From Eledone cirrhosa (taxonomy: Eukaryota): a DNA stretch of 64,000 nucleotides. A program made the position numbers and the translations under genes. The notes beneath the pieces were generated by a model that did not search any database, was not told where the DNA came from, and saw only the letters and a list, made by a program, of their open reading frames with translations. The first letter of the stretch is position 1; each line of letters starts with the position of its first letter. Shown one piece after another: positions 1 to 64,000 of this stretch. Location of the stretch: the NCBI GenBank assembly GCA_964016885.1, contig OZ024744.1:125798001-125862000 (forward strand). The letters are read 5' to 3'.

Positions 1-368
1 GTGTATTTCCAACATTTCAAACCCTATCTAGGACTACATTATCTAATGTACAGTACAGTAGTTAGTATTAGTGGCTATCAGACATAGTGTATCTAAATGC
101 AACATTTTTAACATTGTTTTTTTTTTCTTTTCTTTTCTTTTCTTATTCAGATGACAGACGGCAGAGGATACAATAGAAGAAAAGAACAATGATAATTATT
201 ATTATTATTATTGTTGTTATTCCTTGAATCTCAGTCATTGATGTTGGTTAACTGGAAAGTCCGTTGGAATGAATATCAAGCCACTACCTGCAGCCTCAGA
301 TATTCAGGACGTATCGGAGGGTTCTTGCTGTTCCAAGCAAGCATGCCTTTTGAAGCGTTCCAAAAAGC

Positions 369-615
369 GTGAAGGGGCCGATTTTCTTTAACCATCCCTG
401 GAAACTTTTGGAGATGGACAAAAAACTGGAACACAATAGACCTGACCTGGTGGTTGTGGACAAAGAAAAAAGATCGTGTCTGATTGTGGATGTGGCCTGC
501 CCGTTCAACACGAGAGTGCAAGAGAAGGAGAGGGAGAAAATTAACCGATACCAGGACCTAAAGTGGGAGGTGAAAAGGATTTGGAACTTCCATGAAGTCA
601 AAGTGATCCCGATTG
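369..615 (+). mobile_element. Fragment of RLE-type non-LTR retrotransposon (R4/Dong/NeSL-like endonuclease domain)
   Basis: HNRPDLVVVD...LIVDVACP...KEREKINRYQDL matches the PD-(D/E)xK restriction-like endonuclease motif; abuts (ATT)n. Confidence 0.75.
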
Positions 616-679
616 ATTATTATTATTATTATTATTATTATTATTATTATTACTATTATTATTTGTTTTATTATAATCA

Positions 680-1215
680 AAATATGCTGTTAGTTAGATC
701 TGCATTGTGTACATTTTATATAATTTATGCCAGTTCCTTTTCTACATATCGAACATGGCCATTTCCCTGACGGAATAGAGTTTTGTCCTCTTTTCTACTC
801 ATCAACACTCATTCGTGACACAAAGTACAGCCAGCGGCATCATTGCGGACAGACTTAATCCTGATTTGCACTGACACACTGCCTCGCAATACGGAACACC
901 GCACGTCTTTGATCTTCTTCCCGTCGATCAGCCTCCTTGCCATGCAAAGTACACCTGACGTCTAGCTTCTCTCTTAGCGGCGGCGGCTGTATATTCTTCT
1001 CTACTCCCACTAATTTTCCAAGCATTCCATGCTAGTCTTTAGTCTCCAATGGCCCGATCTACAGTTTCTGTCTCAACTCGTCTATGCTTGGTCGTTCCCG
1101 CACATTGACATTGCACATCCAACGGAGCATGCTTGCTTCATTTCTCTCCAGCCGTCGCATGTCCTCTGCAGTTGCTGCCCGTGTCTCACTACCATGCAGC
1201 ATCGCGCATCTAAAC
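680..1215 (-). mobile_element. Mosaic of RTE-clade LINE fragments
   Basis: GKWPCS(I)C motif and MLHGSET...RLERNEASMLRWMCNV C-terminal RTE motif on minus strand. Confidence 0.7.
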
Positions 1216-1254
1216 CTGGCCCTTACCCTAACCCCAACCTCTTTGGTTTTCGTT

Positions 1255-2090
1255 TTCTCGACGGCTAGCCGCATTTCGTGATCCGCCTTTCGATTGCGCT
1301 TCCGTCGCGGCAAAAGAATTGCCTTTCCAGACCGCCGTCGCCCGACCGGACCCATGATAGAAGACGTTCGTTACCGTTGGAGCAACGCAAATTACTCCTC
1401 GGTTGACGCCAAAAACGAACGCCTTCCCGCCTCGCGCCGCCTTCTCCTCGCCGACCCTCGGCCTCGACGATTAGCCACTTTCCGTCACAGCAGTAGATAC
1501 GCGTCCGTCGTAATAGCCGTCATTTTAACGCAGGAGAAACGCCTAATTGCCCTGCACCGCGTTTGACGGCGATCTACGACGGCGACGATGCGCGCACTCT
1601 TCCTTGCTGCGACGAAGGTTTCGGCTTTTCGTCGTGGACCCGGTCAGGTCATGCCGCTGACCTCGCGTTACGGCGACGCGAGAAGACGTTCGTTACCGCT
1701 GGAGCAACGCAAATTACTCCTCGGTTGACGCCAAAAACGAACGCCTCGCGCCGCCGCTTCCTCCTCGGCCTCGACGATTAGCCGCTTTCCGTCACAGCAG
1801 TAGATACGCGTCCATCGTAATAGCCGTCATTTTAACGCAGGAGAAACGCCTTGACGACGATATACGACGGGTCGACGACGCGCGCACTCTTTCTGCTGCG
1901 ACGAAGGTTTTGGCTTTTCGTTGTGGACCCGGTCGGGTCATGCCTCTGACCTCGCGTTGCGTCGCCACCGCCGCGGCGGGCTTGGGTTTAGCCGTAGCTA
2001 CCCTCGTTTTGCCAACGGCGACGCGAGAAGACGTTCGTTACCGCTGGAGCAACGCAAATTACTCCTCGGATGAGGCCAAAAACGAACGCT
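1255..2090 (+). repeat. Orphan, rearranged copy of the rDNA spacer/ETS-like sequence (no 18S follows)
   Basis: Shares the 169-bp repeat and ETS-like segments with 8234-9517; the ETS-like piece is duplicated. Confidence 0.85.
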
Positions 2091-60786: not shown

Positions 60787-60816
60787 TTTTCGAATCGACA
60801 TCAACTCGGCTACGGC

Positions 60817-61161
60817 TATCCCGTCGAGTACGAGAGTATCGCGGGATCAGAGCAACGGTTTGCTAGGCTGCCTCTGAGCGATAACGGCTGAACGCCTCCT
60901 CTAAGCCGGAACCCTAGCCGGACCCGAGTTGTTTTTCGACAAGCGTCTCGACCTTCTTAAGGCCCATGCCTTAGTTTGGCGATTGCCGTCCGTTCGCCGA
61001 CGGCGGCAGCGTCAGCGGAAATGCCATTCTGTGACGACTACGACGATTCGTCGTCGTCGTCGTCCATTCGATTTCCTGAAAGAGATAGAGACTAAAGTGA
61101 TCAAATTGTTCGGAGTTACGTGCTTAGTAGAGCAGCTACCACACTGCAATCTATTGAGAGT
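60817..61161 (+). pseudogene. 28S rRNA 3' fragment, copy 2
   Basis: Matches 16444-16788. Confidence 0.85.
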
Positions 61162-62594
61162 TTTCTGACGAACGATACAATCCGCCCACGTGGCGCCAGA
61201 AAGGGAGAAGAAAAGAAAAGTTAGACGCCGCCGATCGATCGGTTCGTTGTTTTACGTGTACACAGCTTGTGTGTGTGTCTGTATGTGATACAAGCCGCCT
61301 ATCCGTCTTCCAAGTAAGTTTTGTGTGTAGACTGCGGAAAGAAATCCAATCCGCCGTCTAGGCGGTTCTGCCGCCGACCCATACTTTTGCGAGTCGCTCC
61401 CGGGAAAGACAGGCGGCAAGACGGCGTGTATACACGACGCCTTCCGTCTTCCGCCTCGAACCCGGGCAAACGTTCCTTTATTCGTCCACGCCTTCCCGCT
61501 TCGATCGCGAGAAAGTAATCAATCTGTTTTGTGTGTGTGTCTGTGTGTGATACAAATTTGTTTTCTTAATTTGATAACCATGAATTGTTTCAACACCGGC
61601 CCTTTTAAGGGCCACTTATATTTTCAATAATCAGTTTAAATGGGTTGCACCGTAGCCACTTGGTAATACACTGCAAATCTCCCGTCAATCTATGAAGGTT
61701 TTGTAGTAGATTAGATCAAAACACAATCAGCAAGACAGTAATGGAATGAATAATATAAACATTTGTTTATAATTAAAGCCTTAAGATGTCCCTCCCTCCC
61801 TCCCTTCCTCCCTTCCTTCCTTCCTTCCTTCCTTCCTTACGATATACACTTTAATAACATTGAAACTTATTTAATAAGTTTAAATTTTAAACACTTTTTA
61901 TTCAGACGTACCGCGATAAGTAACTAGATATGTTCTAACGAATAATCCGCGATGTGGCGAGGATTACCGCGATAGGAAATTAGATACGTTCCAAAGAAAT
62001 ATCCGCGAAAAGTGAACCGCGATATAGCGGGTTCACCAGCCAGTGTATTACTGGTACTTTATTTTATCGACCCCCATAAGGATGAAAGGCAAAGTTAACT
62101 GTGCAATAACAAAGGGAGATAACCTCGTCTTTTTTTTTTTACGGAGTTATTTCCCTTTAAATTTTATCTATTACTTATGATGATACAATTTAATCAGTTC
62201 TTAGCTGTCGAGACACTGCATCCTTTAAAACCTCCATGGAACAAGCTACCTGCAACAGTTGTTAGCTGTCGAGACACTGCATCTTTTAAAACCTCCATGG
62301 AACAAACTACCTGCATCAGTTGTTAGGGTCTGAGTTCAAATCACGCCGAGGAGGTTAACTTTGCCTTTCATCCTTACGGGGTCGGTCGGAAAACGAACCA
62401 TTCCCGGTTCGCTTTCGAAGCGGGTTTCCGAAAACAGCGCTTCTCTCGACCGGGCCCGTCGTCCGCTCGGCGGTGGTTTTCATCGTCCCAGGCACGGCTA
62501 ACAGGCGGAGACGGGACAAACGCGCGTGTTCCTTTTTTTATCAGCCGCAGCGCCGTTCGTATATATGCTTAGGTTGTTTTTTTTTTAAATATCC

Positions 62595-62825
62595 TAAGTT
62601 AAGTTGGGGCTAAGTTAAGTTGGGGCTAAGTTAAGTTGAGGTTAAGTTGAGTTGGGGTTAAGTTAAGTGGGGGTTAAGTTAAGCTGGGGTTAAGTTAAGT
62701 TGAGGTTAAGTTAAGTTGGGGTTAAGTCAAGTTGGGGTTAAGTTAAGTTGGGGTTAAGTTAGGTTGGGGTTAAGTTAGGTTGGGGTTAAGTTAAGTTGGG
62801 GTTAAGTTAGGTTGCGGTTAAGTTA
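62595..62825. repeat. Telomere-like 16-bp repeat, copy 2
   Basis: Matches 18222-18452. Confidence 0.88.
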
Positions 62826-62827
62826 CA

Positions 62828-64000
62828 TTCGCCGCCGGACTTCAGCTTCCTCATTTAGCATGGGCAGTCTTTCTTGAAAATCACACCACACACAGCAAAT
62901 GTGTGTCCGCACATGTACCAGTAATTACAGATCGATTCCGGTGAAAATTCACTGAAAACGGGCCATCCGGCCCTGTGCGTCGATCGTGGGCCGGCCGGAT
63001 GTTGACGGATCGATGTGTAATTAGAAGTACATGTGCGGACACTCATTGGCTGTGCGTGGTATGCATTTCAGCAAGATATCTCCGTAACATCAAGAGTTAT
63101 GGCTGTGGAGGCACACCTAGTCAAACGTAAACAAGGTCTGGAGCGTTTACGCTTCGCGATTTTGTTTACGTTTGACTAGGTGTGCCTCCACAGCCACAAC
63201 TCTTGATGTTACGGAGATATCTTGCTGAAATGCATACCGCGCACAGCCAATGAGTGTCCGCACATGTACTTCTAATTACACATCGATCCGTCAACATCCG
63301 GCCGGCCCACGATCGACGCACAGGGCCGGATGGCCCGTTTTCAGTGAATTCTCACCGGAATCGATCTGTAATTACTGGTACATGTGCGGAGACACATTTG
63401 CTGTGTGTGGTGTGATTTTCAAGAAAAACTGCCCATGCTAAATGAGGAAGCTGAAGTCCGCCGGCGAATGGTGTGCTTCGAAGAAAACTAATTCGAAAAT
63501 GACCGTTTGCAGGCGGAGTAACCTTTTCGATCGTGGGCCAGCCGCCCGTGGTGGGATCCATCTGTAATTACTGGTACATGTGCGGACATACATTTGCTGT
63601 GTGTGGTGTGATTTTCAAGAAGAACTGCCCATGCTAAATGAGGAAGCTGAAGTCCGCCGGCGAATGGTGTGCTTCGAAGAAAACTAATTCGAAAATGACC
63701 GTTTGCAGGCGGGGTAACCTTTTCGATCGTGGGCCAGCCGCCCGTGGTGGGATCCATCTGTAATTACTGGTACATGTGCGGACACACATTTGCTGTGTGT
63801 GGTGTGATTTTCGAGAAAGACTGCCCATGCTAAATGAGGAAGCTGAAGTCCGCCGGCGAATGGTGTGCTTCGAAGAAAACTAATTCGAAAATGACTATTT
63901 GCCGGCGGAATCACCTTTTCGGTCCTGGTCCGGCCGGATCTTGCCGGATCGATCGGAAATTTGTGGACCATGTTCGGAAGGCCATTGTGCATGTGTGGTG
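62828..64000. repeat. Palindromic satellite, copy 2 (truncated by window end)
   Basis: Matches 18455-19627. Confidence 0.9.

What the first reader, a model, noticed from the sequence alone, without database searches (positions are those of the whole stretch)
1..64000. 44.37-kb near-perfect tandem macro-repeat carrying the pseudo-rDNA cassette
Seen: 19.6 kb of overlap with only about three differences spotted. Even the satellite copy numbers and most microsatellite lengths are the same. Inference: a very recent or actively homogenised array (concerted evolution as in real rDNA arrays) of a unit that cannot make rRNA. Alternatives are a circular element read through more than once, or an assembly duplication.
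Basis: partly seen in the sequence, partly recalled or inferred. Interest (0 to 1): 0.7.

Follow-up and report, generated by a model that had tools for sequence, protein, structure and literature searches.

The report
Tandem repeat carrying gutted ribosomal genes
A 44-kilobase block of probably octopus DNA sits in at least two almost identical head-to-tail copies, and each copy holds a dead ribosomal-RNA gene whose middle has been replaced by a satellite stitched from scraps of both 18S and 28S rRNA; whether the doubling is genomic or partly an assembly effect needs read data.

Summary
Observation confirmed: 1-19627 matches 44373-64000 with exactly three differences (one substitution, one dinucleotide unit, one homopolymer base). 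All three lie in 1460-2700, the next 16.9 kb is identical, and there are no Ns. The match runs off both window ends, so only 1.44 periods and no array boundary are seen. The unit cannot make rRNA: about 200 of 1764 reference 18S bases are recognisable, no 5.8S was found, and 28S survives as a ~50-nt scrap plus a decayed 3' end. The core is a 19-monomer satellite of sense-strand 18S and 28S fragments. The host is probably an octopus. Only about 20% of the unit is rDNA-like; the rest is LINE/SINE debris, satellites, younger nested duplications and an intact CR1-like ORF. Best reading: a real, very young or homogenised composite tandem array carrying an rDNA relic as passenger. An ordinary haplotig duplicate is unlikely (1 substitution versus about 240 at octopus heterozygosity). 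A collapsed-array walk or a circle is not excluded. rDNA-style concerted evolution is suggested, not shown.

The parts
1..44372 (+). One full period of the macro-repeat (arbitrary phase, set by the window start)
44373..64000 (+). Second copy, first 19.6 kb; 3 differences from 1-19627 (at 45832, 46578, 47074)
1255..2089 (+). Older, diverged paralogue of the spacer/ETS-like DNA upstream of the 18S remnant (6.9% substitutions vs 8986-9475); holds the single substitution between the macro-copies
8143..8236 (+). Degenerate (TAACCC)n telomere-like tract abutting the spacer repeats through a 4-nt overlap
8233..9160 (+). 5.5 copies of a 169/172-bp CpG-rich repeat (ETS/IGS-like; promoter status untested)
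9161..9517 (+). 5' ETS-like segment directly upstream of the 18S start (CpG o/e 1.87)
   Evidence: ETS identity inferred from position
9518..9710 (+). 18S rRNA 5' end, reference positions 1-178
   Evidence: Rfam SSU_rRNA_eukarya 71.2 bits; nhmmer E 7e-22
9711..16423 (+). Satellite of 19 monomers (mostly 317-412 bp) made of sense-strand scraps: 18S 380-394, 18S 1297-1349, 28S 1446-1497 (2-5 times per monomer, 51 per unit), 18S ~1095-1156, plus an unassigned ~37-nt piece; 3.68-kb higher-order duplication
16430..16811 (+). Decayed 28S rRNA 3' end: altered sarcin-ricin loop, and about 26 nt missing from the following hairpin
   Evidence: Rfam LSU 57.8 bits
16812..17140 (+). 3' ETS-like CpG-rich segment
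   Evidence: inferred from position
17220..17264 (+). Orphan histone 3' UTR stem-loop match; no ORF of 100 aa or more directly upstream
18222..18452 (+). 16-bp G-rich telomere-like minisatellite, 14.4 copies
18453..24061 (.). About three 1.58-1.78-kb repeats, each with a ~650-bp near-perfect palindrome and 196-bp subrepeats
24968..36124 (+). Three copies of a 3.4-kb block at 3673/4068-bp spacing, 0.03-0.09% substitutions, with structural differences between copies
39306..42179 (-). Uninterrupted 957-aa endonuclease + reverse transcriptase ORF of a LINE (CR1-like by recall), inserted in a TA/CA microsatellite
6497..6960 (+). Broken RTE-like LINE remnant; best named relatives are Octopus proteins
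   Evidence: 6621-6827 searched
42675..42986 (+). Further telomere-like (TAACCC)n tracts among CT microsatellites
52606..61513 (+). Second copy of the rDNA-like block, identical to 8233-17140

Best explanation
A genuine head-to-tail chromosomal tandem array (two or more copies) of a 44.37-kb composite unit, in a probably octopod genome, young enough or exchanged often enough to be almost identical. Steps: (1) A displaced or array-edge 45S rDNA unit lost function [loss shown; location inferred]. (2) Repeated deletions and template switches at short shared words joined distant 18S and 28S pieces, some apparently clipping out hairpins [junction words shown; mechanism inferred]. (3) The chimeric ~317-bp piece was amplified into a satellite, leaving ancestral rRNA bases only in the edge monomers [pattern shown; unequal exchange inferred]. 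(4) The surrounding TE-rich DNA, studded with telomere-like repeats, went through nested tandem duplications of growing size, the 44-kb period being the top tier [ladder shown]. (5) The top tier is kept alike by recency and probably by unequal crossover or conversion [inferred from the clustered differences]. The rDNA relic is most likely a passenger with no product, at most a supplier of recombination-prone repeats.
For: Exact repeat with no N gap. One substitution in 19,627 bases against about 240 expected at the 1.22% heterozygosity reported for O. vulgaris (my arithmetic). The substitution is a CpG-to-CpA transition, and copy A shares its base with the older paralogue at 1763, so the derived base lies mid-window in copy B rather than at a possible contig end. 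The differences cluster (P=0.011), as a conversion or crossover tract would leave them. Divergence ladder inside the unit: 6.9%, 2.4%, 0.5-3.8%, 0.34%, 0.03-0.09%, against 0.005% for the macro-repeat. The inner duplications differ structurally, so they are not re-reads. Ancestral rRNA states occur only at the satellite edges, 9712 and 16398. Both differences from functional O. vulgaris 18S primer/probe sites in the last monomer are CpG transitions. Octopod NORs were reported as terminal in three species (PMC6160780), which fits rDNA next to telomere-like tracts.
Against: Only 1.44 periods are visible. No reads, depth or flanks. Two of the three differences are of the classes most prone to sequencing error. 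Identity of every long homopolymer and of a 72-bp CT tract is equally what two passes over one consensus would give. Clustering also fits an assembler switching between unit variants. The host species, and so its heterozygosity, is not known. The macro-repeat's substitution interval (up to 0.028%) nearly touches the lowest triplet value (0.029%), so its rank as youngest is weak. The hairpin-clipping join at 18S 884/939 is only modestly supported (24 of 1000 shuffles do as well).
Confidence: 0.62

Rival explanations
1. A real multi-copy array exists, but the two copies shown are an assembler's repeated walk through a collapsed loop. The near-identity and adjacency are then partly artefact, and true units may differ more.
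For: 16.9 kb without one difference, including 26 long homopolymers and a hypervariable satellite. The differences are confined to one 1.24-kb patch. Collapse of rDNA-like arrays is common in assemblies (own knowledge).
Against: It still requires head-to-tail topology and at least two sequence variants in the sample, so the biology is largely the same as in the best explanation.
Confidence: 0.2
2. A single-copy locus falsely duplicated in the assembly (haplotypic or mis-join).
For: No flanks are visible. Repeat-rich regions are prone to this (own knowledge). A run of homozygosity would give near-identical haplotypes.
Against: 1 substitution versus about 240 at 1.22% heterozygosity, and about 20 even at 0.1%. 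No N gap between the copies. Satellite and microsatellite lengths would be expected to differ between haplotypes.
Confidence: 0.11
3. The 44-kb unit is a whole degenerate 45S repeat (relic plus long IGS) still in or beside the nucleolar organiser, co-homogenised with functional rDNA or spreading as a deletion-defective parasite of it.
For: The outer order is colinear (spacer repeats, ETS-like DNA, 18S start ... 28S end, ETS-like DNA). CpG o/e is 1.5-1.9 in the spacer-, ETS-, satellite- and 28S-like parts (0.82 in the 18S piece) against 0.2-0.5 in most TE-rich parts. A diverged duplicate of the upstream region sits 7 kb away, like a spacer promoter. A subrepeat array follows the 28S end.
Against: About 80% of the unit is not recognisably rDNA. 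The spacer repeat core recurs about 40 bp before the 18S start, so it may be ETS rather than promoter, and a telomere-like tract cuts it off upstream. The retained pieces have decayed. No functional host rDNA unit was available for comparison.
Confidence: 0.2
4. An extrachromosomal 44-kb circle read through more than once.
For: The period has no visible seam. rDNA and satellite arrays shed circles (own knowledge).
Against: No replication gene was seen: of 91 stop-to-stop ORFs of 100 aa or more, 7 were scanned against Pfam and only the LINE ORF matched. The content is ordinary chromosomal repeat debris. One circle read twice would not give a derived substitution.
Confidence: 0.07

Closest known systems
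Degenerate rDNA arrays: marmoset chromosome 6 (PMC13041921, passages read) and human displaced/array-edge rDNA pseudogenes (PMC5381670, abstract read)
   Same: Non-functional rDNA units, in tandem in the marmoset case, mixed with retroelements.
   Different: Those are disrupted by Alu/LINE insertions or degraded but near full length. Here most of the coding DNA is gone and replaced by an 18S+28S chimeric satellite, and the two units are 99.98% identical.
rDNA-derived satellites, e.g. the tomato IGS satellite (PMC2679016, abstract read)
   Same: rDNA rearranged and amplified stepwise into a homogenised satellite by recombination and segmental duplication.
   Different: The tomato repeat amplifies IGS subrepeats and eliminates coding sequence. 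Here the monomer is built from coding-region scraps of both large rRNAs and stays between the 18S start and the 28S end.
Macrosatellites and composite repeats such as human RNU2, SST1/NBL2 and RS447 (PMC5687341, passages read)
   Same: Head-to-tail multi-kb units containing retroelements and microsatellites; RNU2 units are near-identical except at a microsatellite.
   Different: The unit is 44 kb, against 1.4-6.1 kb in the table rows seen. There is no functional RNA gene, and copy number and polymorphism are unknown.
Functional 45S rDNA arrays
   Same: Tandem units of tens of kb, spacer subrepeats, ETS-18S...28S-ETS order, near-identical copies.
   Different: No intact 18S, 5.8S or 28S; altered sarcin-ricin loop; 5 of 6 published octopus 28S primer sites (all those upstream of the retained 3' piece) are absent.

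Membership tests
Functional 45S rDNA array | Intact 18S gene | tested here: not met
   200 of 1764 reference bases matched at E<0.05; nhmmer finds only 1-178, 1103-1158 and 1295-1349
Functional 45S rDNA array | 5.8S gene between ITS1 and ITS2 | tested here: not met
   0 nhmmer hits at E<=10 for 2 reference 5.8S queries; no Rfam 5.8S at gathering score. The references are not from the host.
Functional 45S rDNA array | Intact 28S with the H88-H93 region and a canonical sarcin-ricin loop | tested here: not met
   5 of 6 O. bimaculoides primer sites have 7-10 mismatches at best; the loop differs from the Rfam consensus and from the 1 reference covering it
Functional 45S rDNA array | Head-to-tail near-identical units | tested here: met
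   In the assembled sequence, 1.44 periods
Functional 45S rDNA array | Pol I promoter, transcription, nucleolar location | not testable with these tools
   No expression or cytological data
Functional 45S rDNA array | Concerted evolution across many units | tested here: inconclusive
   Clustered differences, P=0.011, but only two copies
Macrosatellite / composite tandem repeat | Multi-kb unit repeated head to tail | tested here: met
Macrosatellite / composite tandem repeat | Near-identical units varying mainly at embedded microsatellites | tested here: met
Macrosatellite / composite tandem repeat | Many copies with copy-number polymorphism between individuals | not testable with these tools
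   No eukaryotic genome collection or reads available
Degenerate rDNA array (marmoset/tomato type) | Tandem rDNA-derived units unable to make rRNA | tested here: met
Degenerate rDNA array (marmoset/tomato type) | Coding region disrupted by retroelement insertion | tested here: not met
   9518-16811 is made of rRNA scraps and one ~37-nt unassigned piece; the LINE remnants lie outside
IGS-derived satellite | Monomer comes from intergenic spacer subrepeats | tested here: not met
   Monomer pieces map to 18S and 28S coding regions
False haplotypic duplication | Copies differ at about the heterozygosity rate | tested here: not met
   0.005% vs 1.22% for O. vulgaris; host species not established
False haplotypic duplication | Half read depth over both copies | not testable with these tools
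   No reads
Extrachromosomal circle / episome | Covalently closed circle without chromosomal flanks | not testable with these tools
   The match runs off both window ends
Extrachromosomal circle / episome | Own replication gene | tested here: inconclusive
   7 of 91 ORFs scanned against Pfam; only the LINE matched

The most novel reading that the evidence does not exclude
The unit is a deletion-defective, selfish rDNA repeat, the rDNA counterpart of a defective-interfering genome or petite mtDNA. It keeps spacer, ETS and both gene ends, is amplified in the octopus nucleolar organiser by the same machinery as real rDNA, and is transcribed by Pol I into a ~7-8 kb RNA bearing 19 copies of several conserved 18S motifs and 51 copies of a 28S motif. 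That RNA could titrate snoRNAs or assembly factors. The unit would also spread an intact LINE ORF.
Probability: 0.1. Interest if true: 0.82.

Novelty: new variant of a known kind. Interest (0 to 1): 0.48.

Why it matters
If the array is real, it shows dead rDNA being re-amplified as a large near-perfect repeat rather than simply eroding. It also gives a readable record of how coding rDNA turns into satellite: chimeric joins, ancestral edge monomers and nested duplications. It is a test case for whether homogenisation of large tandem units needs selection on their product. In practice, dozens of conserved rRNA words per unit can inflate read-based rDNA copy counts, create false rDNA FISH or annotation signals, and contaminate consensus rDNA built from octopus genomes (the approach described in the PMC13321053 supplement). 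If depth shows an assembly duplicate, only the satellite remains of interest.

Tried and rejected
Rfam at gathering threshold over the whole window found no rRNA, only the histone stem-loop; rRNA hits appeared only in short-region scans. A scan of part of one monomer gave nothing useful. The microRNA hits lie on TA/CA/CT microsatellites, are below gathering score, and were rejected. No tRNA genes. Plasmid searches with the monomer and the 28S 3' piece gave only weak hits. The window's own 28-nt 28S variant had 0 matches in genome contigs. Homologues of the 957-aa ORF were mostly unnamed (best 61-83% identity), and the few named ones were distant (31-37%), so they did not identify the host. A 10-nt antisense match of one octopus primer was rejected as chance, since shuffled primers often reach 10. 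blastn did not detect the 28S 3' end against a reference; nhmmer did so only at E 0.14, so that assignment rests on Rfam, the local alignment and the primer match. A giant Helitron concatemer was considered and rejected: the Helitron-like 3' end near 24204 is followed by a TA microsatellite, not by a new 5' end (signature recalled). Low-coverage errors at a contig start were rejected as the sole source of the differences, because the derived base is in copy B. A retrocopy of mature rRNA was rejected, because ETS-like DNA flanks both ends. The likeness of the period to the human rDNA unit length (recalled) is taken as coincidence. Literature: 10 searches listed no paper on such a repeat in cephalopods or on an 18S+28S chimeric satellite. 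The library is open-access only and most hits were seen only as listings. Metagenome and viral contig collections were not searched. bioRxiv supplements (e.g. of the O. vulgaris genome paper) were not seen and may bear on repeats or rDNA.
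Full report
Observation. Self-alignment shows 1-19627 matching 44373-64000 at 99.980% (1 mismatch, 2 gaps), a dominant k-mer offset of 44,373, and no N in the window. A base walk finds three differences: G/A at 1460, one AC unit at 2206 and T5/T4 at 2700; 2701-19627 is identical. All 26 homopolymers of 8 or more bases and 12 of 13 short tandem repeats agree. The match reaches both window ends, so no edge or copy number is visible.

Host. The window is eukaryotic repeat-rich DNA. A 69-aa stretch of a broken RTE-like LINE has as its two best hits, of 27, proteins named Octopus bimaculoides (64%) and Octopus vulgaris (63%). Twelve bases at 16479-16490 match exactly the 3' part of an O. 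bimaculoides 28S primer, on the right strand, just after the sarcin-ricin loop; 20 of 1200 shuffled primers reach 12 bases anywhere in the unit. The last 12 bases of an O. vulgaris 18S probe match 11 of 12 in all 19 satellite monomers, directly before the 18S 1105-1156 piece. Three of 2000 shuffled monomers do as well, and a non-host 18S has no match within two mismatches. An octopod is therefore likely; the species is not determined.

The rDNA relic. Rfam places the 18S 5' end at 9518 (71.2 bits) and a 28S 3' end finishing at 16811 (57.8 bits). I used eukaryotic rRNA sequences that contaminate public prokaryote records as position rulers. Against them, 200 of 1764 18S bases are matched. nhmmer finds only 18S 1-178, 1103-1158 and 1295-1349, no 5.8S with two queries, and 28S 1446-1497 plus a weak 3' hit. 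Five of six octopus primers for the H88 region have 7-10 mismatches at best. The sarcin-ricin loop departs from the Rfam consensus and from the one reference covering it, and the next hairpin has 2 bases where the model has 28. So the unit cannot make rRNA. Caveat: no functional host rRNA was available and cephalopod rRNA is divergent (recalled), so some point differences may be lineage traits. The deletions cannot be, since octopus has a contiguous rDNA locus and a conserved ribosome architecture (PMC13321053: abstract, introduction, first results sections, part 1 of 4 of the supplement and supplement passages read).

The satellite. 9711-16423 holds 19 monomers with 51 copies of a 28S 20-mer per unit (102 in the window; 0 expected by shuffling). 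All significant pieces are sense-strand but out of gene order. The 18S 380-397 and 1297 pieces join through a shared 5-base word, and the 18S 1336 and 28S pieces share a 7-9-base word. One apparent join skips a predicted hairpin (18S 884 to 939), but 24 of 1000 shuffles give an equally long two-piece match, so this is weak. About 37 nt of the monomer stay unassigned. Ancestral rRNA bases survive only in the first (9712) and last (16398) monomers, the pattern expected of an array homogenised in vivo. The two differences from functional octopus 18S primer/probe sites in the last monomer are CpG transitions. Octopus repeats were reported as mostly unmethylated, with satellites relatively higher (PMC9476566, passages).

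The rest of the unit. The rDNA-like block is 20% of the period. Upstream lie 5.5 copies of a 169/172-bp repeat, fused to a telomere-like tract, and a 6.9%-diverged paralogue at 1255-2089. The repeat core recurs about 40 bp before the 18S start, so these may be ETS rather than promoter elements; promoter function is untested. Downstream are an orphan histone stem-loop, about three palindromic 1.6-1.8-kb repeats (fold z -67), a 3.4-kb triplet at 0.03-0.09% divergence with structural differences, and an uninterrupted 957-aa endonuclease-reverse transcriptase ORF (CR1 label recalled; CR1 is listed among recently active O. vulgaris LINEs in PMC13282606, passages). CpG o/e is 1.5-1.9 in most rDNA-like parts (0.82 in the 18S piece) and 0.2-0.5 in most TE-rich parts.

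Real or artefact. For a real array: one substitution against about 240 expected from 1.22% heterozygosity (O. vulgaris genome preprint, passages); no gap; a CpG-type substitution whose derived base is in copy B, judged by the paralogue at 1763; and a region with a long record of nested tandem duplication. The three differences cluster in 1.24 kb (P=0.011). This suggests a conversion or crossover tract, or an assembler switching between variants; either way at least two versions of the unit exist in the sample. Against: two of the three differences are error-prone types, perfect identity over 16.9 kb is what a twice-walked consensus gives, and the host's heterozygosity is unknown. Confidence: real adjacent array 0.62, collapsed walk of a real array 0.20, false duplicate 0.11, circle 0.07. 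Separately, I give about 0.2 that the whole period descends from a 45S unit associated with the NOR. NORs are terminal in three octopods (PMC6160780, passages), which fits the telomere-like tracts but proves nothing for this locus.

Comparison and verdict. It works like a composite macrosatellite (RNU2-type near-identity; PMC5687341, passages). It belongs with degenerate rDNA arrays (marmoset chromosome 6, passages; human displaced units, abstract) and rDNA-derived satellites (tomato, abstract). It is not a member of functional rDNA arrays. It differs from those precedents in unit size and identity, and in a satellite made from coding scraps of both rRNAs sitting between the retained gene ends. 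Ten literature searches listed no such case, within an open-access library and mostly at listing level. Verdict: observation confirmed, interpretation partly supported, new variant of a known kind, interest 0.48. The boldest reading not excluded is a selfish, transcribed, deletion-defective rDNA unit (probability 0.1).

Noticed in passing
window 17220-17264 and 61593-61637 (+): Histone 3' UTR stem-loop above the Rfam gathering score (36.6 vs 34 bits), about 400 bp after the 28S end, with no histone ORF upstream; perhaps a relic of a histone gene near rDNA.
   Followed up: partly
window 39306-42179 (-): Uninterrupted 957-aa LINE ORF (endonuclease + RT) with an (ATT)n tail, inserted inside a TA/CACGTG microsatellite; every full array unit would carry it.
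   Followed up: partly
window 18453-24061: Tandem 1.58-1.78-kb repeats, each with a ~650-bp near-perfect palindrome (fold z -67) and 196-bp subrepeats in both orientations; origin unknown, possibly IGS subrepeats or Helitron cargo.
   Followed up: partly
window 24178-24204 (+); 27273-27349, 30946-31022, 35014-35090 (-): Helitron-like 3' ends (short GC hairpin followed by CTAG, next to TA repeats); signature recalled.
   Followed up: partly
window 8143-8236, 42675-42986, 18222-18452, 1222-1240: Telomere-like tracts: a C-rich tract joins the spacer repeats through a 4-base overlap left of the relic, and a G-rich 16-mer array lies to its right, reminiscent of telomere healing of a broken rDNA piece.
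   Followed up: partly
window 24968-36124: Triplicated 3.4-kb block separated by a 661-bp filler, or a 258-bp version of it lacking about 400 bp; only the third copy continues natively into the downstream LINE remnant.
   Followed up: partly
window 43017-43516 vs 105-1075: Older (about 2.4%) local duplication straddling the window's period boundary; one copy is split by an insertion at about 222-633 that looks like a Dong/R4-type LINE endonuclease end (recalled; no Pfam hit).
   Followed up: partly
window 4163-5271, 24619-24885, 36259-36828: Additional minisatellites with periods of 53, 72/142, 75 and 48 bp.
   Followed up: no
L001 (NZ_CP050525.1) and L002-L041: A 1764-bp record deposited as a bacterial plasmid is a eukaryotic 18S fragment, and 40 listed (about 180 estimated) GTDB contigs carry a eukaryotic 28S motif: contamination in public prokaryote collections.
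   Followed up: partly
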